Assembly (NCBI GenBank): GCA_977862235.1
Contig: OZ374562.1
Coordinates: forward strand, 930,001 to 994,000
From: Dudresnaya verticillata
Taxonomy: Eukaryota
Length of the DNA: 64,000 nucleotides
Direction: 5' to 3'
The first letter of the stretch is position 1, and every line of letters begins with the position of its first letter. Under the pieces are notes generated by a model. It was not told the DNA's origin, searched no databases, and worked only from the letters and a program-made list of their open reading frames with translations. Shown one piece after another: positions 28,237 through 53,401 of the stretch. The translations under genes were made by a program, and so were the position numbers.

Positions 28237-29162
28237 CACTACGAAGGCGATTTTAAAATGATTTGATAATTTCCATGGTAATATCCATTATATTTCTTGC
28301 GTCAGATTTTGCGCCGGGCCCGACGGATGCGCATCATTAAAATCCCAAATATGCAGCATGAATATCCTTGCGACACAGCCTCGCGCCGTTGATTTATGTT
28401 TCATTTCCCCAGCGCGTTTTGATCTCTTGTTTCCGGAGGTTTGGGGCATTATCGTTCATGTTTGGATTTGTCTTCGCAATACTTCAAATTGCCCAGGCCT
28501 GGGTCATGAAAATTACGAGTTGTTTTGCGAATCCTAATGAATCTGGTTCAAGGGAGTAATGCTTCATTTCCTTTGTTCTCTCGCTTACAACACACGTGTT
28601 GCGATGCGGCGGCATCTCGCCAAATCACGGGCTAGAAACATCTCATTAATGCTGTAGCGCATCGCATGGGCTTGCGCTTTACTCGGCAGTAAACACTGGT
28701 TTCCCGCGTTTCAGAATGTACTTTCAAAAACAGACTGAAATAAAACGCTTTGAAAGTACATGCGTTGGAAAGGGGAGCGTGCCCTGAGCACGCTGGTGCA
28801 AACGGAGTAGAAAACTAAGTAGTAGTTCTCGAGTTATGTTGGTTGGCGTGCTAACCCGGCAGCGGGTCTGAAATAATTAATTTTGCTATAATTTCTGAGA
28901 TTTTTAATTCGGATTTGCGGTAACCTAGGCTACTTCCATAGGCCCCTCACCGCGCAGTAATTGCTGCCGCAACATTGCAGAACTACTCGTCAGTGCAATG
29001 TCGCGCATCCACACAACATACAGAGTACTGCAGCACTGCCATGAATTCCTTTCCGCGCCTCACTCCCGAAAATCTTCACGCATTCTTCAGCAGAATAACG
29101 CTCGTCGTGAGCGGGGAAGAAGCCCGGGTCAAGCCTGTGAGTTTGCAGCTTGGGAGTTCAGG

Positions 29163-29301
29163 CGCATGGTGTTGGCGGGGCCGAGAGTGGAGCTGGCGGC
29201 GAGAGCATAGTAGGGAACAATTTTGAAGTGACGAAGATGCATGGTGTTGGAGGGGCCGAGAGTGCAACTGGCGGCGAGAGCAGTAGGGAACAATATTGAA
29301 G
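29163..29301. repeat. Two-copy direct repeat (~76-bp period)
   Basis: GCATGGTGTTGG.GGGGCCGAGAGTG.A.CTGGCGGCGAGAGCA..GTAGGGAACAA occurs twice. Confidence 0.85.
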
Positions 29302-29559
29302 GGACGAAGCATGAAGGAGCTCCAGTATGGAATAAATATTGCTGTCGTGGGGGGAAAGGTTGGACACGGCAAGGCTCAGTCTAGCTTGCCCTGGAATCTG
29401 CCTCGGTATTTCTGAAGGGTATTGTCAAAGCAGCAGGAAAGCAGCGGGTTTCTGCTGCTAAGGCGAGTCGGGTTGCCTTGAAGGGGAAGCTATAACGAAA
29501 TATTTCCGTGTATGTAGCTAGTTTGCTCCTTTCCTTAGGATACCTTTGTTCAGTTCTAG

Positions 29560-31705
29560 TGTCTGCGTCATGGTTTACGCGGGTGAATCATCTCTCTCCG
29601 CAGTCAACTGGAATCACTATAGTTGTGTGACAGAGCACGAAGACTGTGTCCCAATTCACAACAAGCGAACAGGGTTCAGGACAACATTACACATACAGTA
29701 AGACTCTACCCTCACTGGAGCTTCTCCAGAGCGATAGGAACCTAACGCGATACATCACATCTTCAATACGTTGACGGTGGTAGAACGATATGTCCGCCCG
29801 CTAATTGCTTTCTCAGCTCAGTCCACGATTCCGGAATATCAATCTGTGTTGTCCAACTATCTGGTGAACCCGAAGCCGCGCCGATCAGTTGACGGAGATG
29901 TCGTACATAGCCTGGTGCAGTATATTACCTCACTACTAATGCTGTGAACAGCGATGATATAATCATTTCACCAGAGGCGTAGCGCTGCCTCTCATGAGAT
30001 GACTATGCATAGTATTCATTTCGTACGTGTTCCTGGTCATGGTGCTAAAGCCGCTCTTCGAAGCCACATGCGAAGAAGCCACTTCTAGATTGATTAGAGG
30101 ACTTTCTCCGTCGATGCTGATAATTAAATGGCCCCTTGAAGCCGACGGGAGTTTTTTCACGTTTGTGTAGTTTAACGTATTCCGCTTCGAGCCACGAGAT
30201 GAAATTCATAGCGATTCAATCTCTACTCCACACTCTCTGCCTTCAAACCTTTACGCTTCATGACACGCGCTGTTGATGTAGAAAGAGTTCGGGCAATAGC
30301 GGGTTTACCAGCTGACTTCGGGCGCTGGAAAGCCTGCGCACCGTCTGTTTGGTTCGCATACTTGCCAACCAAACAGACGATATACATATCAACAGAATCT
30401 GCAAATATGTCTTCGTTACCCATCACATGCACGAGTGTTCTTTCATGTCTTTCCAAGCCACCTTCAGAAGGTTGTGGCGAGTCGAGGTCTATTTGAGAAG
30501 TATAAATCTGTTTGCCTCTGCTCTCGGTCTTCAATATGTGGCTAGTACTGCCGGAATGTCAGCTTGTGATATTTCATCCTGAACTCTTTCACGTATGCTG
30601 CGTCCTTCTTTCATGAACTGTTTCGCGTTTTCAACGAACCTCTTAATGACGCTGTGACCGTGGTACAATAACGCCGTACTTAACATGTTTGCTTATAGTG
30701 TTGTTTCCACGTTGAACAGAGTCCAGTCCTTGTCCGTGCTCCTTCTCACAGCAAGGAGCACGGGGCCATAAGCTTGAACACTGTCGCTATTCTTCCAAAC
30801 CGAATTGCGTCAAACTCTTAGCTGCCAACAGTCCCGTTTCTAACTCTTGCATGCAAAGACTATCTCTTTTCGACCCTTGTCATGCCCTTCGGGGTAGACC
30901 GGCTGGAAGCCAGCATTGCTACGTTGCACACTGTTCCTGTCTAGGGAGTTGGCTGCTCCCCCATATTTATCTTCTCGGTTTTAGATATTGTGCGGCCTGT
31001 CATTGAGAACGTTTGATTCGACAGGTCCCATGCTGTGGCCAGCACCTAATACAGGAGATCTGGCACCCTCAGAAGGACCGTGGGCATGCTGCCCATCATC
31101 TTCTGCTTGCGGTCGTGAATACTGATTTCCTGGGACGACTGTCGGCCTCTAGACGCTGTGGAATACCAATAGAAGATCTCTAGTAAGGCAGCATAGAGCC
31201 AATCCCATTCATCTACTCTTCACCGGAAAGGGTCTTGAGATGGTCCATAGCAGTGCCAAACTGGAAGGAAGACTCACTCATGTAAGTTGTTCAAATTGTA
31301 TTCCGGGACAGTCCCTGAATAGTTTCTGACGGTCAAAGCCGCCTTCAGAGTATCTGAGTCTTCTTTGTAGGGTCCCGGCGGTGTGTATTTGCCAGTATGA
31401 ATACCGCATTTGCTGCACTAACGTGCGCCCGGCTTAAGCCGGGACCGAATTCGGGCATCCATTTCTGAGGCAGAGCCGTTCAGGTAGATCAGATGATGAT
31501 GAAAATAGGGATTGTGCCCTATAAACTTCAGCCAGTCCTCATCAATCCAATTCGGGTTAGAACTCAGAACGATCGCTTTAGTGTTCAGGTTTGATGAGCA
31601 TGATTCTGCAAGGAACTCCTTCACAAATATCTGTAGCAACTCCCGCTTCACTCTTCCCTGACTACAACATGCCCTGTTACTGCCTAGTTTGCAGACATAT
31701 TTCAA
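29560..31705 (-). pseudogene. Heavily decayed unknown cargo gene(s)
   Basis: Series of minus-strand protein-like fragments (31418-31705, ~30530-30800, 30223-30534, 29963-30160) with many stops. Confidence 0.3.
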
Positions 31706-31873
31706 CTGTCACTGCGTGTTGTAGCAGGCGTGATCCAAATGTCTTTGCCCCGACCGGTTCATATGAGCTTGGTCGTGCATATTTGCGTGATCTCGTTCTG
31801 AAAATATCAGAACCTACTGGAATCAGACTGGCAACTCAGGTGGTTCCATGTCACTTTCCGATATCTCCTAGAC

Positions 31874-34800
31874 GTGCCACCAGTGCCGGCACCTGTCTTC
31901 GCCTCCTCAGCAGTAATTACCAGTTGTGTCATCAGCTGGAAGGAGATCTCCGCGACGCGGAGACGAAACGGTCGGCAAGCTGGACCAGAAATGTCGACAT
32001 CTTCAACTGCAGTGCGTGAAGATAATGACGGCAAGGAAACTGTTACTTCCCCTACTCGAAGGCGTGTTCAGTTGCTCGAAAAAGGGCTGATAGTCGGCAC
32101 AGCTGAGCCGCTCGTCCCGCCAGAGCCTAGTGGAGCGGACAGTACAGGATGCTATTGCACTAGACTACATGGGCAATATCTGCACGAAGTCGAGGAGGAA
32201 GGGCAAACATTGGCGGTCATTTACAAAGTCAAGATAGAGGAAAAGTTTTCTTCGAAGCCATACCGTTACACCTACAAGGGCGTAGAAGATCCACCTGCTA
32301 CTCTTCGAGGTCTTGAGGTTGGAATGCATGTTTAGGACGTGTCGCAGATGCGCAACAAACCCGTTGGCGGCCGCTCCAATAGTAAACCTCACACACCAAC
32401 CCCCGCGACACGTCGAAACAGGCGTAAACAGGCCGTGAAAACACCACCCAAGGCTGGGAGAGGAGGAAAGCGACTCACTGTGGATTCCCCGCAAACAGCA
32501 CCGTCGCCAGCATTAACAGCGTCACATCTGCAGTACACACCTCGATCCAGACCTGCATGGCGACCTCGGCCACAGGTTTTAAACCTGGCAGATGGACCTA
32601 CTCCGCAAGAAGAAGAATCTAGTGACGAGGCATATGTACCGGGGAGTGAGGCGGACGATAGCGATACGCTTGAAAAGGCGGAGGAGGGGGCTGAAACAGA
32701 AGGACTAGTGGAACCAAACGCAATGTCCAGCCCTCCTGCGGAGACAAATGCTGCTGCAAGCCCAGGGCCGGAAGAGGAGGAAATGTACATGGAATAACAA
32801 AACACTCGGCAGAAGCGACGCTACGTCTCTCACAACAGGCCGAGAGGTAACCCCACTGCACCGTTGATGGCCAGCAAGCGCCGGAAACTGCTCGAAGACC
32901 GTGAGAGCACAAACATCTCATCGTGGGTATGCTGTCAGTCCAAACAATGCTTTGGAACAATCGAAAGCACATATGTGAAGGAGGAAGCAAGGCGTACAAT
33001 TGCAATGAATGGGGCAGCTCGGTGGGCATATCTACGAAGCCTGTTGGAACGCAACTCGAATATGTACTTCTTCAACGCCAGGCCGGTGTGTTACACATTT
33101 CTGGAACGGGCATTTGGATTTTCGAGGGACTTACAGTCGTCGACGAAAGGGACAAGACATGCCCGAAGGCGAACTGGTCCCGGAAAGAGTTCGCGAGATG
33201 CTTCAACTGACTCTCTTGAACTTATTGTGAGTTTCTTGGAAAGGGTAGTGGAAGCCACATCTGACGCAATGCCAGACAAAGATGAGCTCCATCTGCCCTT
33301 CTTTCAAAAGCAGGCGGTCTACGACGTCTTTTTACGTAACCTTGCCGAATTGTACCGAGGAAAGACGCCGCCCTCTCAGAGTTACTTTTACACTGTTTGG
33401 ACTACACATTGCGCAAGGATCAAAGTGCGCAAAACCCACCGATTCGCGAAGTGTGCCGAGTGCAAGACTGTGAGGGACCAACTTGCCCGCATGACGTCAG
33501 GGGGTGCAGACCAGACGGCGACGAAGGGATTGAGACAGCGCCGCAGGCGGGATATAGAGATGGTAAGGCAGGAAATAATCGAGTACCGGAAGAAATGAGA
33601 CATGGCAAACCTCTCGCCGACAAGGTATTGCTCAATGATTATCGATGGTGCAGATCAATCGGCGTATGGTCTGCCGCACTTCCATGTTCGATCGAAAGCC
33701 ACAACGGGTCATGCGCTGGCAGCAAAGTTAATAGGAGTACTGGACCACAGTGCTGCAGATCGATTGTCGTTATTAACAATGACTGCAGAGTTCGAATCCG
33801 GTGCAGACCATATTGTTGAGGCGTTGCACCGCGTGTTAGCAACCAAATATGATAGAGGGGAGGTTCGGGGCACTCTCTTTCTGCAAGGAGACAACTGTAC
33901 ACGTGAAAACAAGAACACGTTCCTACTCGTGTACTTGGAGTCGCTCGTGTCGTGGGGGGTATTCACTGAAGTGCATATGTCTTTCTTGCCAATCGGGCAC
34001 ACACATGCCGACATCGACCAAACTTTTAGTTGCACCTCCAGGAGGCTTCGCGTCCACGACGCGGTGACTATGCAGGACTTGATGGAGGAACTACGCCAAT
34101 CGTACACACCCGCGCCTATAGTGACGCGCATGCGACACATCGTGAACTGGTCCGGAATCTGCAAACAGGAAAAGTGTATTGGGGGGTTGAGCCTTTCTCC
34201 CACTTTCGCTACTTCAAATTGTCCAGATCGGAACTGAACTCCGGCTCTACTGCAGCTTATTATAAGAAGAAGAGTGAGGTACGATTGGGTTGCAAGTATT
34301 CGTGGGAGGCGTTGAAAACAAAGGGACCTCAACAAGGATTCTTGCTATTCCCACCCGAATTGGGAAAGACACCTGCCACTGCGATAATCTCCCCTCCAGA
34401 TAAGGAAGAAGTAAGCAAGCGCTTACGCTCAGAGGAGCTGCGAATCCATGACTCCGCGAAGCTAAAGGACTTACAAAAGTTGCGCGATGAGGTCTTCCGC
34501 GATCGCGAGGAGCCTCTGCATTGGGACCTGACAAAGGTATTCGAGAAGAAGGGGGTATATATAAAGTCGGAGCAAGTTTTCGAAAGCGATGGTGAACTGG
34601 GGGAGGATGCAGATAGAGACGCTGAGGAGCAGGATGACGCTGAGCACGAGACTCAGCGTGCTGACTTGACGTATGGTGTCAACCTTTTCGTGGTGCTGAA
34701 CATTAAGGACAATAATGTGCCTTTCTGCATCGGACAGGTACAGGGCTGGGAGAAGGACAGAGCGGGTGTCGTTTGCACCCTGTCAATCAGGTGGTATGAG

Positions 34801-34998
34801 GTTGGTTCAGGACAGGACGCGTGGGACGGTAAATATCGCCCTTCTGTCTGCGCCAGAACCAAGAAGGCATGGACTGACGATGTTGATGCCGCGTCTGTCC
34901 TCGTTGAGTTTGAGAAGCTGTCTAATAATGCCTGCCCCAAGCCGTTAAGAAGAAGATACGAGACTCCTTACAGAAATCGTAGCACGATAGTCCATTAA
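31874..34998 (+). pseudogene. Sola-like (DUF7869-type) DDD transposase with extra N- and C-terminal domains
   Basis: 31874-34237 is one frame with three internal stops, then a frameshift to 34030-34998; KCAECK, IIDGADQ, LQGDNCTRENKN, FLPIGHTHADIDQTFS. Confidence 0.75.
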
Positions 34999-35779
34999 AG
35001 TCTTAACGCTCCTGGATTGAAGGAGAAGGGAATTGTTGTGAACCTCGGAATGCTAATCACCCAATACCTACTCTGAATGTCCTTGATGTGGCATAACGTA
35101 ACGCTGACATAAAGTAACGCTGATTTTCCTTGATGTGGCATAACGTACCACACTGCCACGAATACTTTCGATTTGGATGCCCTGCATATCCCGCTTTCGT
35201 TATGCATGACGCTGCAGAGTGAAGTAGACTGCCTCCCGTTTTTCTCACTACCTTGCTTAATATATGCACTCTGCCTCGCTGTCCAACTATGAAATGGCCC
35301 TTGACCTTTATGCTGAATTCGTCAAGGACGCTTTCATATTTGGTGGAGAACGCGATAGCTATTCATGCAATATACGCTTGAGTCATGAAAAACGCTGCAG
35401 GTCCAGCAAATATCTACCGGTGTTAATAGCTTCCTCCGCTATTTTGTCGCGAAAGAACTGGGCTTTGAGCATGTATGCTTTGTGCATGTATGAAGCATTG
35501 AGCGACCCGGCTCTAATGGCTACGGAGCTCGAGGAACTTGCGGAAGCCTGAGAAGAGCGTCGCCCTGCGGAACACCGTAGCCGGCACGGCCCCGGAACAG
35601 ACCAAGCAGCAAATATCCAACAAATGGAGCCGTCTTCTGTAGCCAAGCGTGCTACTGTCGGTTCACATCGTTGGCTGGGTCTTCGATTGTGGTCACAGCA
35701 AGATCGTTGAAAGTCAACTCAGGCGTTGACCGCTTCGCGTCTAGACTTTCCCTCTCACATAGTGTCAATTAAGCCATGT

Positions 35780-36110
35780 GACGAGTAGCCACGGGAACCT
35801 CGCGGGAAAGCTGTGCAACCAGACAGGATTTTACCAAAGAGAACAATTCTCTTGTATGAAAACCCTGAACTTCGCCTCAGTGTCTTCTTGTTTAGAGCTC
35901 TCCCACAGTGCGGCATGAAGAGCACGGTACAGGCCCCAGAAGGCGGGGCACGCACTGTGAAAGCGTCCGCCGCTACAGCGTCGAAGCCTGCCTAGCGTGC
36001 CATCTTGATGCCATCCTCATTCATAACCGCGTCGGTGTTGGTGCAATGCGAGGGGTTGCCTGTTGTCTCGCTCTCTGCGAGAGAGTCTCTCGTGGAAGCT
36101 ATTCCCAATC
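35780..36110 (-). pseudogene. SRR1-domain-like fragment
   Basis: Manual translation LGIAS..TDAVMNEDGIKMAR*AGF..TVLFMPHCGRAL..RIVLFG resembles the SRR1 DPV..LFYMPHC..GNS pattern. Confidence 0.4.
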
Positions 36111-37112
36111 AACTGACTCGCCACAGCCAACGCAAAAATCGCCCCATGCCTCTTCCCAAAAAGCGTCAGAGTAAAACACGCAGGCCTTCTTGCGGGCGCA
36201 GAGCACGAGCAGGTCGTCACGACCAAACATGCCATCGAGCCACTTACAGAAGTCCTCAAACTCTGGGTCCAGATCCGCAAGGGCCTTTCTGCAATCGCGC
36301 CACCGAACGCACTCACTGCTTCGGCGAATTACTATGCGCAGTAAGTTGTTGATACGGAGACCTGCGCGGGCAGCCATCGCGCGAGCGCGGTTGCTGCGTG
36401 TGGCTAGCGTGTTGCTGCGACGGGTGCCCCCTTTGCTGTAACGTTCTCAGCATACAGTCCCGCCGAGGGACTAACGGCCTCTGCGGAGCACTTGACGTTG
36501 ACCCCAGGAAGATCTCCATCCTCAATGCCGACCTGTTTCTCAGCCTCTAAAGAATTCTCCTCCGGAAAAATTTCCTCAATGCCCTCTCCCACTCCCTGAC
36601 TGTCGGCGAAGCAGTCCATAACAAACGCATCCGGCGTCTCCTTCCCAGCATCCCCAACGCAGCCAAAATATTCCTCCTCTTGTGCCCGTTCAAAAACGCC
36701 CTGTGAAGGCGAGAGTGAGCAGACGTGCGTGAAACCCGACGGAAGAGAGAAGCGGTGCGGGTAGTGCGTGTGTGCGTCGCGCAATGCGCGCAGTAGCGTC
36801 TTCAGCGTGGCGTATCCGACATCGGGGCGCAGCAGCTCGCTGAAGCGCAGCGAGGCGCGCGGGGAGCGCCGCGCCATCCGCCGCTGGGCGCCGCAGGGGT
36901 GTGCCTAGCGACAGGTATCCATGCCCAAACCAGGCGGACGTCGACGCTGCGCTGCGACTGCAGCCTGCTCAGGGCGGTACATACAGCTGAGGGTGTGGAT
37001 GGGTTGCGCAGGGGGTGTTTTGGGCAGGGAAGCAGATGCAGCTATTCTGATGTGTGTCATACCGACCGCGCTGCCGCGTGCCTGCAGCGATGGGACTGTA
37101 TGATTCCGAGAT

Positions 37113-37459
37113 GGCCGGATAGGTTTCTGCGAATGCGAGCCGCCAGGACCTATCCGGCAATATTGATATTAGTTTTTAGGTTTTCTCGACCCGGCGACGC
37201 AAAAACCTTTCTAATAGGTATTCTGGTTGCGTGCTTACAAATACCTACAAAGGTATTTCTGAAGCGCCGACAGCAAAACTTATTGCAATAGGTTTTGTGA
37301 AAGTGATTTGGAAAACACCTATATAGGTATTTCCAGATTCCGTGTAGAAATACCTATTAAACAGATATTCGATCTCTCGCGCCGTGAAAACCTATTTGTC
37401 AATATTGATATTAGTTTTTAGGTTTCTGCAAGGTCGTGCTGTGAAAACCTATCCGGGCT
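37113..37459. repeat. AT-rich MITE-like fold-back segment
   Basis: CCGGATAGGTTT at the left and AAACCTATCCGG at the right; AATATTGATATTAGTTTTTAGGTTT twice inside; no TSD seen. Confidence 0.6.
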
Positions 37460-37913
37460 CCCGGGGCTCGGTCGTACACAGTCCGCCGCCTGCCCGCGCT
37501 CGTCGCCATATTTGTGTGTGCACCTCGCGCACCATGCCGCGCACCATCCACACTGCCGCCAGTTCTTCCTGTTCACGCCAGACTATCGTTGCTGACCCCG
37601 CGGCGGGTTTAGAGCCGGCGCCCATGTGACGCAGAAATGCTCTCGCATGGCCAAATGTCCTGCGCACAGCGCACAGCGCAGGGAATCGTCCCCCGCGGCA
37701 TTACCATCAAGCACGGATACGGGCGCGTATCGTGTTGTTCGGGCGTGAGAAGAGATGGAAAGATGCAACACAACGCAGTTTACATTTCAGTTTCCGGCGA
37801 GTCACAGGACCACTCTAAAGATTGCCGATAGCTGCACATTTCCGGTATCCCCCCTCCATCCGAGCTGGGTTCTGTTCGTTCTGTGCTGGACCATACATTT
37901 CGGTAATCGCCCT

Positions 37914-38114
37914 TTATAGGGCACTGACTCTCCCCCTAATGCTCCTCAGCGCGTTCACAGCTCGCCTGCCTTCACCATACATAATCTCTCTCACGGCTTG
38001 TGCCACGGCCCGAAGTTGCTCATCGAGATAGTTTGCTCTCGTCTGCAGTTGTCGAACCTGCAGACGGAGGTCGTCAATCTCACCTCTCAGCTCCTGGAGT
38101 GTTTGACGCGTCAT
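37914..38114 (-). CDS. Small coiled-coil protein
   Basis: Heptad pattern LQELRGEIDDLRLQVRQLQTRANYL; similar to the neighbouring ORF. Confidence 0.4.
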   Translation of the reverse strand: MTRQTLQELRGEIDDLRLQVRQLQTRANYLDEQLRAVAQAVREIMYGEGRRAVNALRSIRGRVSAL

Positions 38115-38172
38115 TCTGATTTCTCTTCTAGCCCCTTCTCACTAGGCACGTCGGTGTGCAGTGCAATGGCGA

Positions 38173-38619
38173 TCAAACTGGAGGGGCAGGAAAATGTGAT
38201 TCTGGATCTGAATCCAACTCGATGTACACCTCTTCTCTGTGTTCAATTCCCAACCTTTCTTCAATTGAACGTAGTCTGTCCCGAGCCTGCCCGGCAAACC
38301 TCATGACGTGTACAACGACCTTTCCCACGCGGTTGAAAACATCGCTATATATGGCATCCAGGCGCAGTCGTGCGTCATCAATGAACGACCTCATCTCAAG
38401 AACCTCAGCCCGAAGAGTCTGAACTTCACGCAACATTGTCGTGGGGTCAAGACTCGGAATTCGGTCGCGATGTCCATGTGAGAAGTTCATGGGGTATATC
38501 TTTGTCCACGTTCGAGACATTGCAAGGCCATTGCAGCAAAGCCGCACTTGATCTGGAATAAACGCTGTAGACTGAGGATTCTGAAAAGCTCGTGCCAGGC
38601 GAATATACCCAATATGCAT
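38173..38619 (-). CDS. Small coiled-coil protein; real start may be ~38490 or 38435
   Basis: VQTLRAEVLEMRSFIDDARLRL..ARDRLRSIEERL. Confidence 0.45.
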   Translation of the reverse strand: MHIGYIRLARAFQNPQSTAFIPDQVRLCCNGLAMSRTWTKIYPMNFSHGHRDRIPSLDPTTMLREVQTLRAEVLEMRSFIDDARLRLDAIYSDVFNRVGKVVVHVMRFAGQARDRLRSIEERLGIEHREEVYIELDSDPESHFPAPPV

Positions 38620-38649
38620 CTCGGAGGTTACTCTGACGGTAATATCGTA

Positions 38650-42626: not shown

Positions 42627-42799
42627 TACGAGATTCGCAACATTGCAGATCCTATAGACGGCGGAGATGCCGCAACCTGCTGTGACACCGGTGATGTATC
42701 TGGGAGAGGCCTCTCCAAAGAAATTGTTGCAAGCGACAGGAATGGAATCATGGAGGTATAGATGAACAAGTGTTCATCTTTAAAGAAGTGAACTCATAC

Positions 42800-43810
42800 A
42801 GCCTAGGCCTAGGTAATCTGGGCCTACTGTTGTACAACGTGCACAACAGTTAGTTGTATCTGTTAATGAAACGTGAGGATATGTGTTAAACCGCTCCTCA
42901 CCGCCAGGTAGTAGTCACTACTGAGCTATCAAGAGTGGGCCCACTCCTTTCACAATGCATGCCGTCGTGCACAAAATGAAAGCAGGAAGGAGCTAGCTCC
43001 GCAGCAGCTGCTTCAGCCTAGGCTATAGCCTGCAACACCTGGTTGTAACCAAGCAATGTGTTAGACAGCAACTAGCTGCTGTTAGCTAGAAATTGCTTCA
43101 GTTGATAACGTTACAAGTACTTCAGGTATCAGTTCGAAGCCTAGGCTGGATGGGAACTGAAGGACCATGCCCACGCCTTCAACACCGCATGCCGTCGTGC
43201 ACAAAGTGAAAGCAGCAAGCAGCTGCTTTAACATAGGCTATAGCCTGGTTTCAATCTTCAGCCGCAGCTATTAGAGCACGGAGCGGAGCACAATTGAGCC
43301 ATTATGTTGCAAAGGTCTAGCTCCTCGCAGCTTGCAAGCTTAAGCTTTTGTACCACAATTGTACCAGGTAGAAAGAGTGGGCAAACTCCTTCATTATGCC
43401 GTCGTGCGCAACATGAAAGCAGCTGCTGGCAAGCAACTGCTTTAGCCTAGGCTACAGCCTGGTTTCAATGTTCAGTCGCAGTTATATAGCTGCATAGCTC
43501 TCATATGAGAGCACAGCGCGGAGCACAATTGAGCTGTTATGTTGTAAAGGTCTAGCTCCTCGCAGCTTGCAAGCTTAAGCTTTTATACCACAATCGTACC
43601 ATGGTAGAAAGAGTGGACCCACTCCTTCATTATGCCGTCGTGCACAAAACAAAAGCAGCTGCTAGCAAGCAACTGCTTTAGCATAGGCTATAGCCTGGTT
43701 GTAATCAAGCAATGTGAGCAATAAGCAGCAAGCAACTGCTTGACAATAGGCAACAGCCTGGTTGCAACCAAGAAACGTGTTTAACAGGAGCTAGCAGCTA
43801 GCTAGCAGGT
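42800..43810. repeat. Degenerate tandem array, about 4 units of ~200-240 bp
   Basis: ATGCCGTCGTGC(A/G)CAA at ~42959, 43188, 43396, 43632; repeated AGGCTA(T/C)AGCCTG; lies between convergent genes. Confidence 0.85.
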
Positions 43811-43860
43811 CATTATTTACATGTAAAGCTTTGCAAATATAGATGAAAACTGAAGGACAA

Positions 43861-46800
43861 TCAGTAGCGGCCCGGGCCCGGGTTGTGACTCGGACCAGCT
43901 CCTTTATCGCAGCCTCGCGGTAGGAACGGCATGTAAGGGTGAGCCTCGTCTCTCGGGTGAGCATCGCCCCTCGGGTGTGCCTCGCCTCTGGGGTGTCGCT
44001 CGCAGTCGATACCCGGCTCATGCGCACGTTCAACTTCCGTGTAACGGTCATCACGATGATAGGCGTATCCTGAGCGGTCCGCATTATGGCCGTTATGGTA
44101 CGGCGTTTCGCACTCGCGGCGGCCGCCGCCACCCCTTGTGGTACCATAGCTATTCATTGGAGGCCCGGGCCTCTGATGGCCATCGGTCATATGATCATAA
44201 GGGCGGCCACGAAACCTTCCAGCGTTATTGACTTTGTAGTTCCCGCGGTCGTATCCGTTATACTTGTCGCGGTCGTACCCACGATAGTTGCCACGGTCGT
44301 GCAAGAGGGAATGCCCTTGGTAGTTGCCACGGTCGGGCCCTTGATAGTTGCCACGGTCGTACCCTTCATAGGTGCGACGGGCACGAACCTCATCATGGAC
44401 ATGTCTAGGGTGCATGAACGCATTACGCCCACGTTGAGCAGGCCCACGTGGAGCACACGGGTCGCGATACCCCGGGCCCTGAGCAGGAGGCCTTGCGGCA
44501 GGCCGGCAGGAGGGCTCTCCATCACCCACTCTCCCAACGAACTGTGCTAAGTCATCTCTCTCAGCACGTAGCGCTTCCATGGAGAAAATAATCTCATTAA
44601 GATTCCGCGTCGTGTGCGTTACCGTCTCAAAAAGCTTTCTCGCCAGCCTCTCAACAGTAATGAAGTCATGCTGTATCCAACCGTGCAGCCTGATGTGTGT
44701 TTCCAGGCCTGGAATCTCGGCCAAGTCTCTGAGGCCGATGCGCAGTGGGAGCGGGGTGGAGGCGCGCATTTCCTGCCGACGGAATTGACGCACGCTGAGC
44801 TTAATATGACGGAACTTAGAGTCAAGCATGGCCTTCCTCCCGGCCGGGGGTTCCCAGCAATGTTGCCGGTTCCAATAACACTGTTAATGAAGAAGCTCCG
44901 TGTCAGACCTTCAAACGGTAACATCAACTCGTTCCGCTTCGACACGTGCATCGCATTCGAAGCTAGCATCCGCGAAATGACAACATCACAGTCCTTTCTG
45001 GTGCATGGAAAACCCTTCCCATTCATGCTAACAATCTGAACATCTCCCACAACCTGCTTGATCGTGTGGATGGTTTCCCTTTCCAAGATGAACGCGCGGC
45101 CGCCGCGAATCGCCTCATTATGCCAGGTAGCGGCCAGGAGACCAAGAAACGCAACCTTTAGGATCTCGTTCAAGCGCTCACGTCTATCCATGTTACTGCC
45201 GTCAACTATTTCCTGGTGATAGTACCACACACAAGGGGGGAGGGGGACTGGAAGCGTTGCTGGTACCTGGAGGTTGGATAACCACACAGGCGTCGCCGGG
45301 AAGACCTTCCTCATCTCCTGAAGTGTGTAGCGCTTTGTATCATACGCGTCAAAAGGTACGAACAGACCACAGGATTCTCGGGCCCAAGCTTCATAGATAA
45401 ACGCGGGTCTGTACCTGAATTCATTCCACCAACGGCCTAGAATGGGGTCACTGAAGAGAGGGTGGTCTTTACACAGCGCGGCAGCAGCTCGTGCAAGTAC
45501 ACGTCCATCTCATCATTGTAGTAACACTCTACCTCACCCCGAGCGAATGTTCTGTCGACCTGCATCGTGTTCGGAAGTCCATACCATGGTCTCTCGGCAG
45601 TCATGAGAGACCATGCATCATTCACTGATTGCTGATCCTGCTCGTAGAGGTTCAGATACCGCTTCGCGTATGCTTTCATGTCGGTCAGCTCCCGCTTCAG
45701 AAAATGTGTGAACGAAATGACGTGGAGCACTCCAGCACTCCACGAATGCCTTGCGCTCAACCGGGGCTTATCAAGCGCCATCGCATCAAGATTGTCCCTC
45801 CATTCGGGAGGAGCCCCTTCCCATCCTCCACGCGGCTGCATGCGTGGCAGCTTCGCCCACGCGGAATTGAAGGTTGGAACAACAGCAACCTGAGCATCAT
45901 GCGCGGCTGCGCCCTGACCATGGGGACCATCCATTGCGCGTGACGATCCCATTCGCATTTCTCCTGGAGTGCGTTGAATAACGCGCATCGACTCCGCGAA
46001 AGTCAGGTACGGAACAGGCGTTGCCTGCATCTGCAATGGCATTCCTGGCCTATCATCTCGAACCGCAGCAGAAGCTTGAGCAGCGCGACCATCGGCCGCT
46101 GGCCCAGACCTTGGCGCCTCACCAGGCGCGCCTCGTCGCGACGACGTGGCTTGACTTGTGCCCTTCGTGGGAGACCTTTTCCTCTTTCCCTGCGAATCTG
46201 TGTCCTGGGCGGCCGCCCTTTTCCGCTTTCCCAACGATGGAAGTTCTTCCAGGTCTGGTAGTTCCTCGGCGGTATTGTAGGGACCATAATTCTTCCGCAG
46301 CTTGGTCAACTGAGCTTCATTATCGACATCAATGACATCACTGAGCTCTCCATCTTCATTGGCCCGTGATTCCTCACCCTGGGTACTCTTCTGTGCTGGC
46401 ACCCCGGCCGGGGTCTTGCTCGCAGGCTGGACGTCTGCAGCCTTGTTAGCAACCTCAGACGCAGAGCGCGGCCCCGCGGGGGTGTGAAATCCAATTGTAC
46501 CCCCATCTGTCAAACGCCTGACAAAGTCCACGTTTTCAGGACTCGTGCCATTATCCAGCAACTTCTTCTTGAAAGCTTCTTTGCCCGCGCTGGAAGTGGC
46601 CACTTCCAGCTCCACCTCATGTGTTGCACCGCGGTCCCCGCCGGGGCCGGCCGGGGCTGGAGCCTCGCTCGCCACTGGGAGCTGCCTATCATGGAGCTCG
46701 TTCTGTGTGGCCATGGGGATGTCCGTTGCTTCTGCGGGCTGCTGAAGAACGACCTTCTTCGTCCTGGGTGATTCTCTACGCGTTGTCTGATTGCCTTCAT

Positions 46801-47640
46801 CAGAGGCTGCGGCTGCATCCTCGCCAGTAGACAAAGCGCGTTTGGGGGTTGGGGTCTTGTTCTTGACCACCGTACTCTTCGAGGCCGCCTGCTGCTCTGC
46901 GTCTGCTTCGGTCGGCGCAGCTTGACTACGAATACCGGTAACAGGGCCGGTAGCAGGGCCCTGCTTGGGAGGTACCGTAACAGCGGGGGCAGACCCTGAA
47001 GATCTAGTCTTCGGCTTCGAACGGGTAGGCTTCGATATCGAGGACCTCTTGGAAACCTTATTCTTGCCCAACGCTCTAGTGGCAGACTTAGTAGCGGCGG
47101 CCGCCGCCCTCGTCTTCGAACGCACCGGAGTCTTCACTGTCTTGTCTGTAACTCCGGATTTTCCCGGGCGTTTCCGCGTCGCCGAGCGCATCGCTCCAGG
47201 TTTTGGCGCCGCGGGAGCCGAGCTGGCGCAGAGGTCGAGCGTTTGGGAGCTGGCCGGTTCTTCTCCACATCTTCGGATGGAGCGGTGCGCGCGGGCGCAG
47301 GCGCGGACGCAGGCATGGGAGCGGGCGCGGGAGCGGGCGCAGGCGCGGGTGCAGGCGTGGGAGTGGGCGTGGGCGCGGGCGCGGGTGCAGGCCCAGGCCC
47401 GGGCGCGGGTGCAGGCGCAGGCGCGCCCGGAGCAAGCGCGGGTGCGAGCTCGGGTGCAGGCGCGGGCGCGGGAGAAGACACAGGAGCTGGAGCCAGCGCG
47501 GGCGCGGGTATAGGTGAGGCCGCGGGCGCGGGTACAGGTGAGGCCGCGGGCGCGGGTACAGGTGAGGCCGCGGGCGCGGCCGCGATGCCGTTCTTAGATG
47601 ACGTGCCCATGGGCACTTTGGAGTTGTCGGTACCCATCAC
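43861..47640 (-). pseudogene. Large cargo ORF (~1250 codons, frameshifted): Pro-Ala repeat, K/S/T-rich disordered region, core homologous to the Gypsy antisense ORFs, coiled coil, DRGNY and HPRG repeats
   Basis: Overlapping pieces 47134-47994, 45437-47191, 44619-45440 and 43861-44829. Confidence 0.75.
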
Positions 47641-48507
47641 GAAAACCTGGAGGTGGGAGGGTGTAGTCCGGGTTGTGGTTGCCGGAGAGAGGGAGCGGTG
47701 GGACTCATTTTGCTCTGATATGACGTATTTTGCAGGCTTGATGACGACCGAAAATCGCCGCTCAATGCCGTGCCAAATCATCGATCTGGGCTGGTATGAC
47801 AGATCTTGGGCCCTGCATGCAGGCTGCAGGCCCGGCCGGGCCCAGATTCCCTTTTTCTGGTAATAGTTCTGGAACAAACGGGCGGCAATGCGGCTCACAA
47901 CAGAGCCGTGATCGCGGCATGCGCCGCTGTGCACCAGGCAGGCCTGCCTGCAGGCGTACCGGCACGACCAATCACATCTACCCTCTTGTCCCATGGCACA
48001 CGTAAGGCGTGGCTGTACTCAAGTGAAAAACGTCATTGGCTCCAAATGGCCGAATGAGGCCCGCAATACGGGCAAACTATGCGCAGTTTCCAGTACTGGA
48101 CCGCCCAAATGCAAGTATTTGGATTTCAAACAGGCGGTTGTGCTTGTTTCACTGCGGCCGCAGTTTTGGCTCCCGAAAATCTGCTACGCTGCTACCGCTT
48201 TCCGCGTCGCTACGCTCTTCTCGCACACCGAACTCACTCCATGGTGAACAGTCTTCACCTCATCATCCGGTATCGCCATTAACGCTTCGTCCTGAGAGTG
48301 CAGCGCAGTAGTGCTGGCAGACTTGCAACCCAGAACGCGCTCCGTGATTCACCTTCTTCAAATCATCAACAGGGCCCGAGATTTGCTTTCCGCCGTGCTG
48401 CTCAAAACCTTGGAACGCGCCTCAGGGTACGTCCTGGCGAATAAGTATCCTATTTGGTCGCCATCCCCACGCGCGGCCGCGTCGCGGTATACGATTGAGT
48501 TTCGTTA

Positions 48508-51500
48508 ATGGATCAGCCGCATTGGAAAGCACAATATGGGCGTCGCAGAAGTCGCCAACATTCTCGGGTCGACTCTGTGGGAATGCGTGCCAATCTAACC
48601 CACCTATTCCAGTTCGAGAGCTCCAACGACGCATCGGCAATTGCAATTGATGAAGGACCAGCCGGTCCCAGCCCAAGCCGTTTACCCGGCTTCGAACCAG
48701 GGTCTCCTACCGTTCAGATTGCGAATGAAGACTCCGCATGCGCGCAAGACACCGCGTTCGTGAGTCCTTACCAGGAAAGCCTGGGCCCAGGCGAAGGGCC
48801 ATTCTCCACTGCGGTACAGCATAGACCTCTTCGAGCTTCGGACCCTCCCGGGAACCACGTGGCGGGAGAAAGGGGTGATGACGACTTCGGCATAGCCATA
48901 AAAGGGCCCCGCAGCGAAAGAAACGCATTTCTCCGAGACGAGGTGCTCCCGGGAGGCTCCTGTGAGGGGCCCCTTCCTGGAGCCGGGCAAGACAGTCCAG
49001 AATTCGATGAAGATGATGTGCCCCCCGAGTTGTTTGATTCTTTCGATGAGATCATCGACCTGGAAAATGGTTAATCTATGAGGAGGTGGGAGCAAGATAG
49101 GTTATGTGACCCTGTTGCACGAATCGAAGGGCCGCAGCCCTTCGCTTGCTTTGATTCGCGCAACAGGATGGACGCGTCGGGCCGGACTTCCGTTGGTTCT
49201 GCGGTGCCGGCGCCATTTTCTCGGCAGGATCTCGTGAAGTTTCTGCAGAAAAGAAGAACTCTGCTGAACTGGGAGGAGCTGTTCGCTCTGATTTGTGTTT
49301 GTGGAAGCGTCCGAATGACTGTGCGTCAGTATGAAACTTTGAAGAGACTGGGCAACTGGCTGGAGCGGCTTCAGAGTCGCGAGGCCTCGCTACCTGTGTA
49401 TTCTACCATCCAACGAACGATATTCCCGTTTTCAATCAAACATTGCTTCGTTGCGAGTTACAATGTTTCCCTTGCTGTTACGAAGCAAGATCTGAAGAAG
49501 AGGGGAAGTGGGATCTCTTTCACTGCCGTTGAAGAAGAGTATGGGCACATGAGAGGGCGGAATAAGAGAGTGAGAGCGGCCGCTCCCTGACCTCCTCAAC
49601 ACGCTGCAAGCCTTGAAGCAGACGAGACGGCACGACGATTTGCTCCTGTCAAGATCATATTCCCCTCGGAGTGGGCCAAGATGGATATAGCAACTTACCC
49701 TGTATTCAAAGATTTGTTTCCTAATTTCGACACCGGCAACCCCGGGGGCCCGGCGTCTGACTGCAGCTACGCCCAGAGTCCTGCTGACCCGAATCCGTCG
49801 AGATAACAAGAGTTGTGAGGCACCGCCGAAATGCTTTAAACGCTGCTGAGATGTTGTTCGTTTCAAAAGGGGAGAACATCGTTAGAGCGAACATAGGAAT
49901 AACGGTGGATGTTCATGTTCAGCGAGTTCCGAGGCGTGTTGTAACAAATCCGCGTTCAGCACGGTCCTGTGCCTTGAGGGCAAACCCCACCGGGGCCCCG
50001 GGTGTCATCTTGACTGGACAAATTGCTGCCTGCTGGTGTGTCGCTTCCAGAAGCTGCCAAACTGAAAGCTCAAAGCGAGCAGTTGAGGAGGAAAAAGGTG
50101 TTGAGAAGGACATCATCAACCTGTTAAGCGCTGGTACGAAAGTTGATTGTATCCACGGAGGCTGTAACGAAATCGCGGACGCTAACCAGACGATGACTAC
50201 AGACTTGCAAAGCACGGTCGTTCTTCCAGGGGACTTTTGCTCGCTTTTCAGTATTCCCGAGCGACGCCCAGAAGTCTTCGTGGTCTGTATGCTGGTCAGC
50301 CGGTTCTGGCGATATTGGGATGGGGAGCCTTCGCAGCTCTTAATATGGATAGATATGGACAACAGTTGGAGTTCAGGCGTTGATTTCTGCGGGGAGGGGT
50401 CGCTATTTCAAGTCCTGAAGGAAAGGACGCCAGTTAAGGAAGTTCACCTTGGCGTGTGTCGAGATGGAAGGGAGCGAGCACTCCGAAATGCCATTGATGA
50501 AGAAGACATGCCCATGGAATTCCTTTCTCGGCCGAGAAATATGGGGTTCCTTCATTCTGGAGAGAGATATGTCGAATATCGCCTTTTGTTGTACTGTGAC
50601 GACTTTCAACCCTGTACTTCTTTGCTCCCGCAAGGCTCTGCGGGTGGGTGCTACCTTCTCCCACTCGGTATTTCACCGCAAAGCCGTGCGAAGAGATCAG
50701 CTGTACGGCTTTTGGGACTGACGCCGCCCGGTGTGAGCACAAATGCGGTTCTGTGGGACATCGTACCAGACCTCGTGAAGGGATGTACTGAAGGCTTCAA
50801 AGGGAAGAGCCCAAACGGGGAGCATGTCAGGATCTTCCTTGACCCGGTCGGGTTCATTGCGGACTTCCCGGCGGCCGCCAAGTCTACAGATGCTGTTGGA
50901 CACACTGGCAAGGCCTCTTGTACCCACTGCAACTTTCTATGCGTATTCAGTGATGTTTCAGGTAAGTTCGGCTATACTGTGCGACTGCACTCCCAACATT
51001 ATTCAAGCGTTCGATGCAAAGAACGGCATAAGGCTTTGCGGGAGAGTGGAATTTGCGAGCACCAAGCACCATGTATGGGAATGTCGAAGGAGTATGACGA
51101 CAGTGGCATAAAATCGCTATTGTACTTGTCTGAGGAGTTGGAGAGAGTCCGGCCGGACGTGTCTCTTAACGCCAATGGAGAACGTGTCGTGCCGTGCACC
51201 TTCGACCCGTACCTATCACAGGTCGTTGCCCCAGATCACTTACTCACCGGCTTGATCAAGAATACTCTTACAACCTGCTTCCTGGTTTTATCTCCAAAGG
51301 GGAAAACCATTGCTGATATCATAATTTTCCAGGGACTTCGCGACAACGGGATGCTCACCCAGAATTCCGTCTTCGAGAGTATGTTACACTCCATGCCGCT
51401 TTCCGAACTGTACTGCGTTCTCACTGTGTCTATTTCTGCCTTTCGTATAACCATGGGAAAGGAGAGCGATGCTTACCGCTTGGCCAAGTGCCTGCAGGAA

Positions 51501-52771
51501 CTCATTGCAGGAACATTCTGGTGGCCTCTTGCACATGTGGACGGAGAAAAAGCTGTGGAGACGTTTCGAAAGTCGGGTGGCCACCCGTATCTGCGCCGCC
51601 TGCAGAATCTTGCGACGAAATATGTCAAGTTGTGCAACGAGTACATTGAGGCAAACGATCTTGGCGGCGATTTGGACAAGCCCAATCTACATCGCCTCAT
51701 GGAACTGTACTATCACACTATCCCAATGTTTGGGCATGCAAGACATGTCATGGAACTGGTATTCGAGTGTGCGCACTCACCTCTGAAACGATGTGTGACA
51801 AGAAGGAATCAGCACAATGCGCATATATCCGCCGTGGAGCATGTCCTCGGAAACGACTGGCAGGGCAGGCTTGCCCTCCTTAGACACACTTCGGAGCATG
51901 GAAAAAATCAAGAACGCATTATGGCGCGCAGAGGTCTCAGAAGGCTACTTCTCGGGCCCGAGATCTGCTCCGTTAAGGAAGAGGACCCCGAAGTCAGTAC
52001 CGTTATTCAGGACTTGGACGACAAGATAGAAGGGATGTTCGTGGAGCCGCTAATGGAAGAACTAAGGGCAGATGGAAAGGTGAATCCTTCCTGGTCGATA
52101 TCGGAAGCGGAGTGGACAGGGACGACAGTTGCCAAAGAGCTGAAAGGCGTAGAGCGAGCTACAACAGCTGGACATACGTGGGAAGATTTGCTTGAAGAGG
52201 CTGTGTCGGCAATCGAGGAGTACTACCTAGACTTCGACAGGCGAAATGGAGCTGCCGCCCCAGCCTTCATCATGCGCGGAGCGAAGCGAGTTAGAACGAC
52301 GACGGTTGCGGGCCCGCATCGGGCCTACAGGCACGATACAGTTGACCATGGGTCGGTATTAAGATGCCTTGTTTCGCCCGGGGATGAAAGCAGAAACGTC
52401 ATTGTACCAGAAAGTGATGGAAGTGGAAATGTGAAGCTGTTCGCAGTGTATGCTGCCTTCAGTTTGGAGGGAATGGAAGAAATGTGTCAGCTCGCGGGAC
52501 TTGGGCAATTGTTCTTCAGTGCTTGAAGACGGATGCGAGGCTGCAGGTGAGCGCGGCCGCGCTATGTGCGGATATTCAGGTGGTGAAATTGACAAGGGGC
52601 GTGAGGAGAGTCGCTGTGTACCACGTCTGCGTTTTTCAAGAGGACGGGTTGAATCTGGAATGCGAAGTCGATGAGGAACAAAGAACTATTAGGCACACGG
52701 AGTCAGTGTTGGATGGAGGGTTGTACTTTTTTCAGACGAAGGAGCAAGGGTACCCTCCGCGAATGGCGTAG
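48508..52771 (+). pseudogene. CACTA/CMC (Plavaka-like) DDE transposase with stops and frameshifts
   Basis: LLYCDDF, GSAGGCYLLPLG, IADFPAAAK, GHTGKASCTHC, APDHLLTG, KPNLHRL, FGHARHVMELVFECAH in the CMC order; 903-aa open core. Confidence 0.88.
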
Positions 52772-52889
52772 GCACAATCGCAAGCGTGCCAGCGCATGCT
52801 CCGGCCGGAAGCGTGGGCACCTGATAGTGCTATTGTCAAGGGCGCAGAAGGAGATTGACGCGTCGTGCGCGGCCGCGCGCGACGCGCCC

Positions 52890-52940
52890 GGGCGTGCGGC
52901 CGAACGCCGGCCGGCGCGCCCGGCGTTCGGCCGCACGCCC
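52890..52940. other. Perfect 21-bp GC-rich hairpin
   Basis: GGGCGTGCGGCCGAACGCCGG / CCGGCGTTCGGCCGCACGCCC with a 9-nt loop. Confidence 0.9.
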
Positions 52941-53401
52941 CGGCGAGTGCCGTTATAAGACCTACGAAACGGTCACTTGTTACAGTTGTGTAGGTTCATA
53001 GTCATGAAGTAAAGCATGTTTTCTGATGTGTACGAAGTGGCTGTGTCATTAAGTAATGTAGGCCAATGCATGCGTATAGATTCGATGGGCGCAAAATGTA
53101 AAGTGGAAATTGCGACGATACATGAAATATAATACTTGATGAAGTATAAAATCGCAGTAAGGCCGCAGGTGTTACAAAGCGCATGCGTAAATCTGCGGCG
53201 GTAATGAATCTGACTCAAAATTGTGACGCGCCAGAAATGAATTCCAATTATCGGGTATCATAATTTCTAATGCATTCCAAAATCACTTTGCAATTTCTGG
53301 CGCATGTTTTCAGACCCTGGCGCATCAAAATCCCATGGGCTAAATCCATTATTTTGCGATTTATTCTAATATGATCAAGCCGAATTCGCGTTCGTAGTGC
53401 A

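What the first reader, a model, noticed from the sequence alone, without database searches (positions are those of the whole stretch)
28237..53399. 25-kb cargo-carrying CACTA transposon with base-exact boundaries
Seen: imperfect 17-bp TIRs (CACTACGAA-g/c-GCGA-t/a-TT) and a 2-bp TSD (CA). The empty site can be read from the intact LTR copy at ~12275-12300, so both ends belong to one insertion. Between them lie the CMC transposase and roughly 8-10 other genes: a second transposase, a methyltransferase-like fragment, a Tudor-like ORF, coiled-coil ORFs, a 624-aa ORF and a ~1250-codon ORF. Established: CACTA elements usually encode a transposase plus one accessory protein, and 2-bp TSDs are typical of non-plant CMC elements. 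Inference: a multi-gene giant transposon family carrying its own chromatin or anti-silencing toolkit. Part of the content may be later nested insertions.
Basis: partly seen in the sequence, partly recalled or inferred. Interest (0 to 1): 0.9.

Follow-up and report, generated by a model that had tools for sequence, protein, structure and literature searches.

The report
Giant hybrid transposon studded with palindromes
A broken 25-kb cut-and-paste transposon, of a giant kind already known from red seaweeds, sits inside another mobile element; about 40% of it is likely captured debris rather than a gene toolkit, but its core is peppered with about 40 short GGCC-centred palindromes, likely written by a repeated copying process and not yet explained.

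Summary
The boundaries are exact. One 25,163-bp insertion (17-bp TIRs, 15/17; 2-bp CA duplication) splits a 709-bp solo LTR, and a second LTR copy shows the empty site. The broken transposase folds like RAG1/Transib (CMCT clade). Giant multi-gene EnSpm/Plavaka elements (16-20 kb) are published for red algae, and the scan noted several on other DNA, so size and cargo alone are not new. The 'toolkit' is unsupported: the methyltransferase is a ~55-residue tail, with no SET, ParB or oxygenase match. The element has two parts. A ~14-kb core carries four genes and a palindrome-rich array. A ~10.7-kb block holds a DUF7869 putative transposase, an SRR1-like remnant and the methyltransferase tail; it cuts off a conserved accessory gene and shows no ends of its own, most like Pack-CACTA capture. 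Unexpected: 38 of 93 GGCC sites in the core centre perfect 10-22-bp palindromes with arbitrary arms, also inside genes (block 0 of 26; flanks 2 of 159; 35 related loci 15 of 1287). I found no precedent. No genome was held, so other copies are untested. New variant of a known kind; interest 0.5.

The parts
28117..28121 (.). 5-bp target duplication GATGC of the host solo LTR (left; right copy 53996-54000)
28122..28236 (+). Left part of host solo LTR (TGTGGTATA...), ending in the CA target dinucleotide 28235-28236
28237..28253 (+). Left TIR CACTACGAAGGCGATTT
28237..28600 (.). Left terminal region; shares short AT-rich words with the right end; its two GGCC sites are one perfect palindrome (28496) and one near palindrome (28317); inner limit approximate
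28600..39315 (.). Likely captured block (~10.7 kb): 0 of 26 GGCC sites palindromic; no TIR/TSD pair above background; left limit approximate
31976..34965 (+). Broken DUF7869 gene (3 stops, at least 1 frameshift), putative Sola-like DDD transposase of a large separate family; N-terminal domain X at 32054-32317
   Evidence: E 1.7e-42; 68 relatives, 32-53%
35758..36110 (-). SRR1-like remnant, broken (likely host-gene fragment); below Pfam gathering cut-off
   Evidence: E 5e-4, 20.3 bits vs 24
37148..37451 (.). Short direct and inverted AT-rich repeats, unassigned
37917..38649 (-). Two coiled-coil-like ORF pieces, no family
38656..38932 (-). Second copy of domain X (unnamed; shared with the N-terminus of DUF7869 proteins), frameshifted
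   Evidence: (E 9e-14)
39149..39310 (-). C-terminal tail only (~55 aa) of an N6/N4 DNA methyltransferase, related to the ParB-methyltransferase accessory gene of L001
   Evidence: profile 177-219/221, E 1e-3; z 7.0
39304..39969 (-). Truncated accessory gene (beta-barrel/Tudor-looking motif plus coiled coil); relatives lie in transposase-bearing loci L001 and L036 (642 aa there); 3' part absent from the window
   Evidence: z 12.9; z 6.6
40752..42626 (+). 624-aa open ORF, predicted mostly helical (low-confidence model), no family; resemblance to the L010 accessory ORF not significant
   Evidence: (z 1.8)
42781..43860 (.). Tandem array (~200-235-bp units) rich in perfect palindromes, between two convergent genes
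   Evidence: 23 vs 1.6 expected, 0 of 500
43861..47593 (-). ~1244 codons in three frames (one gene with two frameshifts is inferred), low-complexity N-terminus, no family
48499..52771 (+). CMCT-clade DDE transposase, broken (stops at 49072 and 49588, frameshifts near 49760 and 52450); homology shown from 49201
39378..52912 (.). 43 GGCC-centred perfect palindromes of 10-22 bp (43 of 105 GGCC sites, arrays included), arbitrary arms, in coding and non-coding DNA
53383..53399 (-). Right TIR, followed by CA at 53400-53401
53402..53995 (+). Right part of host solo LTR (...TATACCACA)
11688..12529 (-). Uninterrupted copy of the LTR (purine tract before its TG) that shows the empty site

Best explanation
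This is one broken 25,163-bp CACTA-ended transposon inserted in a solo LTR, likely a hybrid in which a ~15-kb four-gene giant EnSpm/Plavaka-type element picked up ~10.7 kb of decayed chromosomal and transposon DNA before it jumped. Shown: the ends, the 2-bp duplication, the RAG1-like fold predicted for the transposase, the conserved accessory gene cut off at ~39.3 kb, and a sharp change of sequence signature there. Inferred: two nearby copies lost complementary ends (left end from one, 39.3-53.4 kb from the other) and moved as a unit with the DNA between them, as proposed for Pack-CACTA elements; filler copied during gap repair would look the same. The transposase would cut at the TIRs, using proteins from an intact copy. 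The core's GGCC-centred palindromes most likely arose by repeated short template switches at GGCC, each copying one flank onto the other without a length change; a finished palindrome would then be self-correcting. Confinement to this family suggests a trigger acting at GGCC on the element itself (about 55% for this mutational route, 35% for selection as a cis mark); no such factor was identified.
For: Ends and empty site. Transposase: 11 relatives at 26-43%; model pLDDT 75; listed Foldseek hits to rank 44 are all RAG1 or RAG-like; VIA Z 12.8, rmsd 4.8, 369 aligned to RAG1. Accessory gene at 39304-39969 has relatives in 2 of 36 transposase loci (L001 z 12.9; L036 z 6.6); it is 642 aa in L036, and a pooled profile finds no 3' remainder in the window. 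The methyltransferase tail starts directly at the cut. GGCC palindromes: core 38 of 93, block 0 of 26, flanks 2 of 159 (Fisher 2e-5 and 4e-17); other 15 four-base centres in the core at most 9%; 26 in core ORFs vs mean 1.7, max 8 in 500 synonymous shuffles; arm length bimodal (55 sites with 0-2 extra pairs, 38 with 3-9); no indel specific to the window sequence at the 8 palindromic transposase sites; coding 31 of 80, non-coding 12 of 25. DUF7869 belongs to a large separate family and was found in none of 36 related loci. The block holds mostly fragments. Precedents.
Against: No second copy of the family was available, so the 15-kb core unit is inferred from one locus. The left limit of the block rests on two GGCC sites. 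Region limits and the GGCC centre were chosen after seeing the data (the p values survive that, but the limits are approximate). Related loci are short (1-19 kb), so absence of DUF7869 there is weak. The block's greater decay was not tested statistically (DUF7869: 4 lesions in 3 kb; transposase: 4 in 4.3 kb). The 624-aa ORF and the 1244-codon gene have no identified relatives, so their standing as family genes rests on the palindrome signature only. Palindromes are slightly more evenly spaced than random (p 0.04-0.11 after merging clusters), which leans towards selection. The host is not identified; red seaweed is an inference (~65%).
Confidence: 0.62

Rival explanations
1. The left block is one or more later insertions (for example a giant Sola-like element carrying DUF7869 and a methyltransferase-domain-X gene) into this copy, followed by a deletion that removed its right end together with the 3' part of the accessory gene.
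For: Domain X occurs in both the DUF7869 gene and the methyltransferase remnant, which suggests one donor lineage; the window is a nest of elements; PAG genes are reported to move between TE families.
Against: No TIR/TSD pair above background (9 candidates vs 1-12 in five control pairs); the block looks at least as decayed as the core, whereas a later insertion should be younger; the SRR1-like piece is not a known TE gene.
Confidence: 0.2
2. A genuine 25-kb family whose 8-10 genes form a chromatin or anti-silencing toolkit.
For: One pair of ends and one TSD enclose everything; related elements do carry methyltransferase genes (L001; published PAG2).
Against: The methyltransferase is a tail without its catalytic half; no SET, ParB or oxygenase match; the accessory gene is cut; the family signature is absent from 10.7 kb.
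Confidence: 0.12
3. For the palindromes only: they are a selected self-recognition mark (hairpin with a GGCC tip in single-stranded DNA or RNA) read by an element-encoded protein, in the manner of VANC or TnpA target motifs but structure-based.
For: Confined to the element core and left end; about one per 330 bp; mildly over-even spacing; a palindrome-rich tandem array like those next to PAG3; GGCC itself is in excess in core ORFs (64 vs 51).
Against: Arms have no consensus; few intermediates (3 sites with two extra pairs), which stepwise selection should leave; VANC motifs are fixed words in non-coding repeats.
Confidence: 0.35
4. Assembly or library artefact (chimeric join, or GG^CC cutting and re-ligation producing the palindromes).
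For: No reads or runs could be checked.
Against: Exact TIR/TSD and a second TSD on the host LTR; palindromes stop at element-internal limits, keep reading frames and align with relatives without specific gaps.
Confidence: 0.04

Closest known systems
Giant Plavaka (EnSpm superfamily) elements of Florideophyceae with PAG1-3 (Bostrychia moritziana, bioRxiv 10.1101/2025.02.11.637652; abstract, passages and section 8 read, supplements closed)
   Same: Giant size, CMCT-type DDE transposase, several accessory genes, N6-methyltransferase homology, tandem array of inverted repeats, mostly degenerate copies. Related locus L001 shows transposase + ParB-methyltransferase + a gene with ParB/2OG-like motifs (by eye) + a relative of the Tudor-looking gene.
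   Different: Here only a methyltransferase tail, in the foreign block; no SET; no match to the ParB/oxygenase-like gene; two large unassigned core genes; dispersed GGCC palindromes, not mentioned in what I read.
16-20-kb En/Spm families with 4-5 ORFs in Chondrus crispus (Kojima et al. 2013, seen only as cited in one passage of PMC6431247)
   Same: CACTA superfamily; size and gene number of the inferred core.
   Different: Sequences not available for comparison; this copy is 25 kb because of the extra block.
Fungal EnSpm, PlavakaA/B and the CMCT clade (PMC12730594; passages read, supplement not opened)
   Same: CA..TG termini; CAC..GTG ends as in EnSpm; 2-bp TSD as in Plavaka; C(2)C motif; RAG1/Transib-like fold.
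   Different: Ends are neither TGT..ACA nor CATCA..TGATG; fungal EnSpm there make 3-bp TSDs; H(3-4)H appears here as H-x3-E; Pfam Plavaka and Transposase_21 hit only below threshold.
Pack-CACTA elements of Arabidopsis (PMC6379663 abstract; PMC13317346 passages)
   Same: CACTA ends enclosing captured chromosomal fragments; proposed capture between neighbouring copies that lose complementary ends.
   Different: Far larger; retains a transposase and accessory genes; mechanism inferred here from one copy.
Coding palindromes of Nematomorpha mitochondria (PMC6649704, abstract); quasi-palindrome template-switch mutations (PMC3820800, abstract); cyanobacterial HIP1 (PMC4390886, search listing); VANC motifs (PMC5735166, passages)
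   Same: Perfect inverted repeats inside protein genes; arm-perfecting by template switch; a palindromic word tied to a methyltransferase site; family-specific motifs in a transposon.
   Different: Here nuclear, confined to one transposon core, short (10-22 bp), a fixed 4-bp centre with free arms and no spacer.

Membership tests
CMCT clade (EnSpm/CACTA-Mirage-Chapaev-Transib-Plavaka) | 5'-CA..TG-3' termini with TIRs | tested here: met
   CACTA...TAGTG, 15 of 17
CMCT clade | 2-5-bp TSD | tested here: met
   2-bp CA with empty site
CMCT clade | DDE transposase of RAG1/Transib type | tested here: met
   Foldseek best E 1.6e-4 to RAG1; VIA Z 12.8, rmsd 4.8, 369 aligned; conserved acidic residues in A1
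CMCT clade | C(2)C and H(3-4)H motifs between second D and E | tested here: inconclusive
   CxxC present (second C missing in 1 of 12); the other motif reads H635-x3-E639, invariant in 12 of 12; equivalence inferred
Plant-type En/Spm | 3-bp TSD and Transposase_21 / TnpA domains | tested here: not met
   TSD is 2 bp; Transposase_21 only in 1 of 12 members at E 0.022, not the window protein; no TnpA-type Pfam hit
Plavaka lineage | Transposase groups with Plavaka in a tree or hits PF18759 | tested here: inconclusive
   1 of 12 members at E 0.19; no reference sequences in session, so no tree
Fungal PlavakaA/B | TGT..ACA or CATCA..TGATG termini | tested here: not met
   Termini are CACTA..TAGTG
Red-algal PAG cassette | PAG2: N6-methyltransferase plus SET | tested here: not met
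   Only the last ~55 methyltransferase residues; no SET hit among 118 ORF pieces
Red-algal PAG cassette | PAG3: ParB-like plus 2OG oxygenase | tested here: inconclusive
   The L001 candidate finds nothing in the window (best E 3.2), but two core genes are unassigned and PAG3 itself has no Pfam hit in the preprint
Red-algal PAG cassette | Tandem array of inverted repeats | tested here: met
   23 palindromes vs 1.6 expected at 42.8-43.9 kb; adjacency to a PAG3 not shown
Red-algal PAG cassette | PAG1 homology | not testable with these tools
   PAG sequences lie in closed bioRxiv supplements; the Tudor-looking gene is a candidate only
Sola superfamily (DUF7869 gene) | DDD motifs, short TIRs, 4-bp TSD | tested here: inconclusive
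   Motif order D / DNCxxENKN / GHTxxDID recalls but differs from Sola2 (PMC3627910 file S10, part 1 of 2); no ends found; no PDB hit
Pack-CACTA | Captured fragments traceable to a donor locus and shared by mobilised copies | not testable with these tools
   No genome held

The most novel reading that the evidence does not exclude
A giant algal CACTA-type family encodes a factor (one of its two unassigned core genes) that acts at GGCC on its own DNA and converts these sites into perfect hairpin-forming palindromes throughout its genes, creating a structure-based self mark for protection or activation, a way of self-recognition not described for any transposon.
Probability: 0.25. Interest if true: 0.85.

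Novelty: new variant of a known kind. Interest (0 to 1): 0.5.

Why it matters
The giant, cargo-bearing CACTA itself adds one more case to a published group, and this copy shows how such giants can swell by capturing debris, a caution against reading every ORF between two TIRs as a toolkit. The palindrome signature is the part a specialist would find surprising: about 40% of GGCC sites in 14 kb, genes included, are centres of perfect palindromes with free arms, and the pattern stops at internal junctions. Whether it is a site-specific mutational process or a selected mark, it can be tested at once with the family's other copies, and it gives a handle on the open question of what the accessory genes of red-algal giant elements do to their own DNA.

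Tried and rejected
No genome held and no sequencing run was listed, so no copy comparison or read check. The 624-aa ORF: no relatives among 7989 candidates; single-sequence model pLDDT 38, not used for a fold search; apparent colinearity with the L010/L020 accessory ORF was not significant (z 1.8 and 0.1; profile), so not claimed. A link from the Tudor-looking gene to the reverse-strand accessory family of L003/L010/L018/L020/L027 is weak (via L036, z 1.0-3.8). Pfam, PHROGs, NCBIfam and PDB gave nothing for the 1244-codon gene or 28.9-31.8 kb. My recalled idea that domain X is the plant TnpA/DUF8039 domain got no Pfam support. No nested TIR/TSD above background; an 8-bp match at 29142/39315 is expected by chance. 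Nucleosome-like periodicity of the palindromes was not significant (p 0.36 and 0.11); strong evenness (p 0.0025) fell to p 0.04-0.11 once GGCC clusters were merged. CTAG palindromes in L001 (5 of 30) are one cell among 560 tested and likely come partly from its tandem repeat. Viral collection scans were empty; the first metagenome scan was empty. The deep protein search and the Atlas gave no answer, so the two core genes remain unassigned rather than shown to be orphan. Literature searches GGCC+methylation+red alga+transposable element and palindrom+coding sequence+EnSpm+red alga returned 0 papers; GGCC/short palindrom/template switch/transposon listed 15 of 85, none on point by title; scan notes held no match.


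Full report
OBSERVATION. The element starts CACTACGAAGGCGATTT at 28237 and ends with the reverse complement of CACTACGAACGCGAATT at 53399 (15 of 17). CA lies on both sides. With the element and one CA removed, the flanks align continuously (655 bp, 87.3%) to another copy of the same repeat at 12337->11687. The interrupted repeat is a 709-bp solo LTR, 28122-53995, TG...CA, with its own duplication GATGC. So the 25,163 bp are one insertion. The rest of the window holds Gypsy pol and Pif1 helicase remnants. No genome is held and no run was listed.

TRANSPOSASE. It lies at 48499-52771(+) with two stops and two frameshifts. It has 11 relatives at 26-43% among 7993 candidates, the full-length ones 1225-1367 aa. 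Pfam does not name it; of 12 aligned members one hits Transposase_21 (E 0.022) and one Plavaka (E 0.19). A model of the core from 23 sequences (pLDDT 75) matches RAG1 first, then RAG-like, P-element and Transib transposases (Z 12.8, rmsd 4.8, 369 aligned). With CAC..GTG ends and a 2-bp TSD this places it in the CMCT clade as defined in PMC12730594 (passages), between EnSpm-like ends and a Plavaka-like TSD. No tree could be built against references.

WHAT IS KNOWN. En/Spm families of 16-20 kb with 4-5 ORFs were reported in Chondrus (one passage of PMC6431247). Bostrychia has 17.4-19.1-kb Plavaka/EnSpm families with PAG1 (unknown), PAG2 (N6-methylase + SET), PAG3 (ParB + 2OG oxygenase) and tandem arrays of inverted repeats, and PAG genes move between TE families (bioRxiv 10.1101/2025.02.11.637652, section 8; supplements closed, and they may hold the PAG sequences and termini needed for a direct test). 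Among 36 related loci, L001 carries transposase, a ParB-methyltransferase gene, a gene with ParB- and oxygenase-like motifs (by eye) and a Tudor-looking gene. Five other loci share a different reverse-strand accessory gene. Earlier scan notes list similar giants in other genomes (unchecked). A red-seaweed host is an inference (~65%).

CARGO. Right of 39.3 kb: a Tudor-looking/coiled-coil gene (relatives in L001, z 12.9, and L036, z 6.6), a 624-aa ORF, a tandem array with 23 perfect palindromes against 1.6 expected, about 1244 codons in three frames, and the transposase. The first gene is 642 aa in L036 but stops after about 210 residues here, and no remainder is found in the window. At the cut begins a ~55-residue methyltransferase tail (Pfam 177-219 of 221; z 7.0 to L001), followed by an unnamed domain X that also forms the N-terminus of DUF7869 proteins. 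Further left are coiled-coil pieces, an SRR1-like remnant (E 5e-4, below cut-off), a broken DUF7869 gene of a large separate family (68 relatives; putative Sola-like transposase by motif order only) and 3 kb without recognisable genes. DUF7869 was found in none of the 36 loci, though they are short. No TIR/TSD pair stands above background around it. No SET hit was found, and the L001 oxygenase-like gene finds nothing. A working toolkit is therefore not shown.

AN UNEXPECTED SIGNATURE. Perfect palindromes of at least 10 bp occur at about 5 per kb in 38.6-53.4 kb against 1 per kb outside. The excess is centred on GGCC: 38 of 93 sites in the core (array and a GC-rich repeat left out), 0 of 26 in 28.6-39.3 kb, 2 of 159 in the flanks (Fisher p 2e-5 and 4e-17); the other 15 four-base centres reach at most 9%. 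Arms are arbitrary, mostly 3-6 pairs beyond GGCC, and the distribution is bimodal. In core ORFs there are 26 against a mean of 1.7 (max 8) in 500 synonymous-codon shuffles. At the 8 palindromic transposase sites no indel specific to the window sequence is seen against relatives. Coding 31 of 80 and non-coding 12 of 25 sites are palindromic. Of the two GGCC sites in the left terminal 260 bp one is perfect and one nearly so. The 35 metagenome loci show 15 of 1287 (summed by hand; many loci redundant) and L036 0 of 2. Limits and centre were chosen after seeing the data. Periodicity is not significant and evenness is borderline. Three paper searches and two note searches gave no precedent; the nearest cases are coding palindromes in Nematomorpha mitochondria (abstract), template-switch mutations (abstract), HIP1 (listing) and VANC or TnpA motifs (passages).

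HOW IT LIKELY WORKS. The signature marks the left end and 39.3-53.4 kb as one family (~15 kb) and the 10.7 kb between as foreign. Because the block cuts a conserved gene with no remainder, has no ends of its own, mixes TE and host-like fragments and looks no younger than the core, capture before the last jump fits best. The route proposed for Pack-CACTA, loss of complementary ends by two neighbouring copies (abstract; passages), or filler copying during gap repair would give this (inferred, 0.62). Later nested insertion plus deletion (0.2) and a true 25-kb family (0.12) remain open. For the palindromes I favour one-step template switching at GGCC, because the arms are free, intermediates are rare and length is kept (0.55). 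Selection for a hairpin mark is the rival (0.35). Either needs something that singles out this family, and the two unassigned core proteins are the untested candidates.

VERDICT. Observation confirmed; interpretation partly supported. The giant cargo-bearing CACTA is a known kind, and this copy is dead and probably padded. The GGCC-centred palindromes are a real, strong and unexplained feature. New variant of a known kind, interest 0.5; most novel reading 0.25 probable, 0.85 if true.

Noticed in passing
window 804-6467 (+): Decayed Gypsy element with gag, RT, RNase H, integrase and a weak chromodomain hit.
   Followed up: no
window 13701-15537 (-): Broken Pif1 helicase gene, possibly Helitron-derived.
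   Followed up: no
window 12249-12469: The uninterrupted LTR copy holds internal duplications around the same site at which the CACTA element inserted in the other copy.
   Followed up: no
window 24653-25149: Inverted pair of ~200 bp at 87% identity inside a Gypsy-related stretch.
   Followed up: no
window 19872-20890: Several tandem arrays with periods 27-31, 59 and 70.
   Followed up: no
window 28237-31800: Mild excess of palindromes without a preferred centre (10 vs 3.5-4 expected) and a 73-bp direct repeat at 29164/29239.
   Followed up: partly
window 52871-52948: 32-bp-arm GC-rich hairpin just after the transposase stop, built around GGCC palindromes.
   Followed up: partly
L001:136-12130: Apparently intact cassette: transposase, ParB-N6/N4-methyltransferase (971 aa), ParB/2OG-like gene (973 aa, by eye), 60-bp tandem repeat with a palindrome, Tudor-looking gene; L002 shares the methyltransferase at 59%.
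   Followed up: partly
L003, L010, L018, L020, L027: A different conserved accessory pair upstream of the transposase (a ~380-470-aa reverse gene in five loci, a ~700-aa forward gene in two), with no Pfam family in the ORFs scanned.
   Followed up: partly
L036:1-5652: Transposase plus 642-aa Tudor-looking gene on a contig filed in a Chlamydiota MAG, probably eukaryotic contamination.
   Followed up: partly
window 32054-32317 and 38692-38932: Unnamed ~100-aa domain X, in 11 stored DUF7869 proteins and fused behind the methyltransferase tail.
   Followed up: partly
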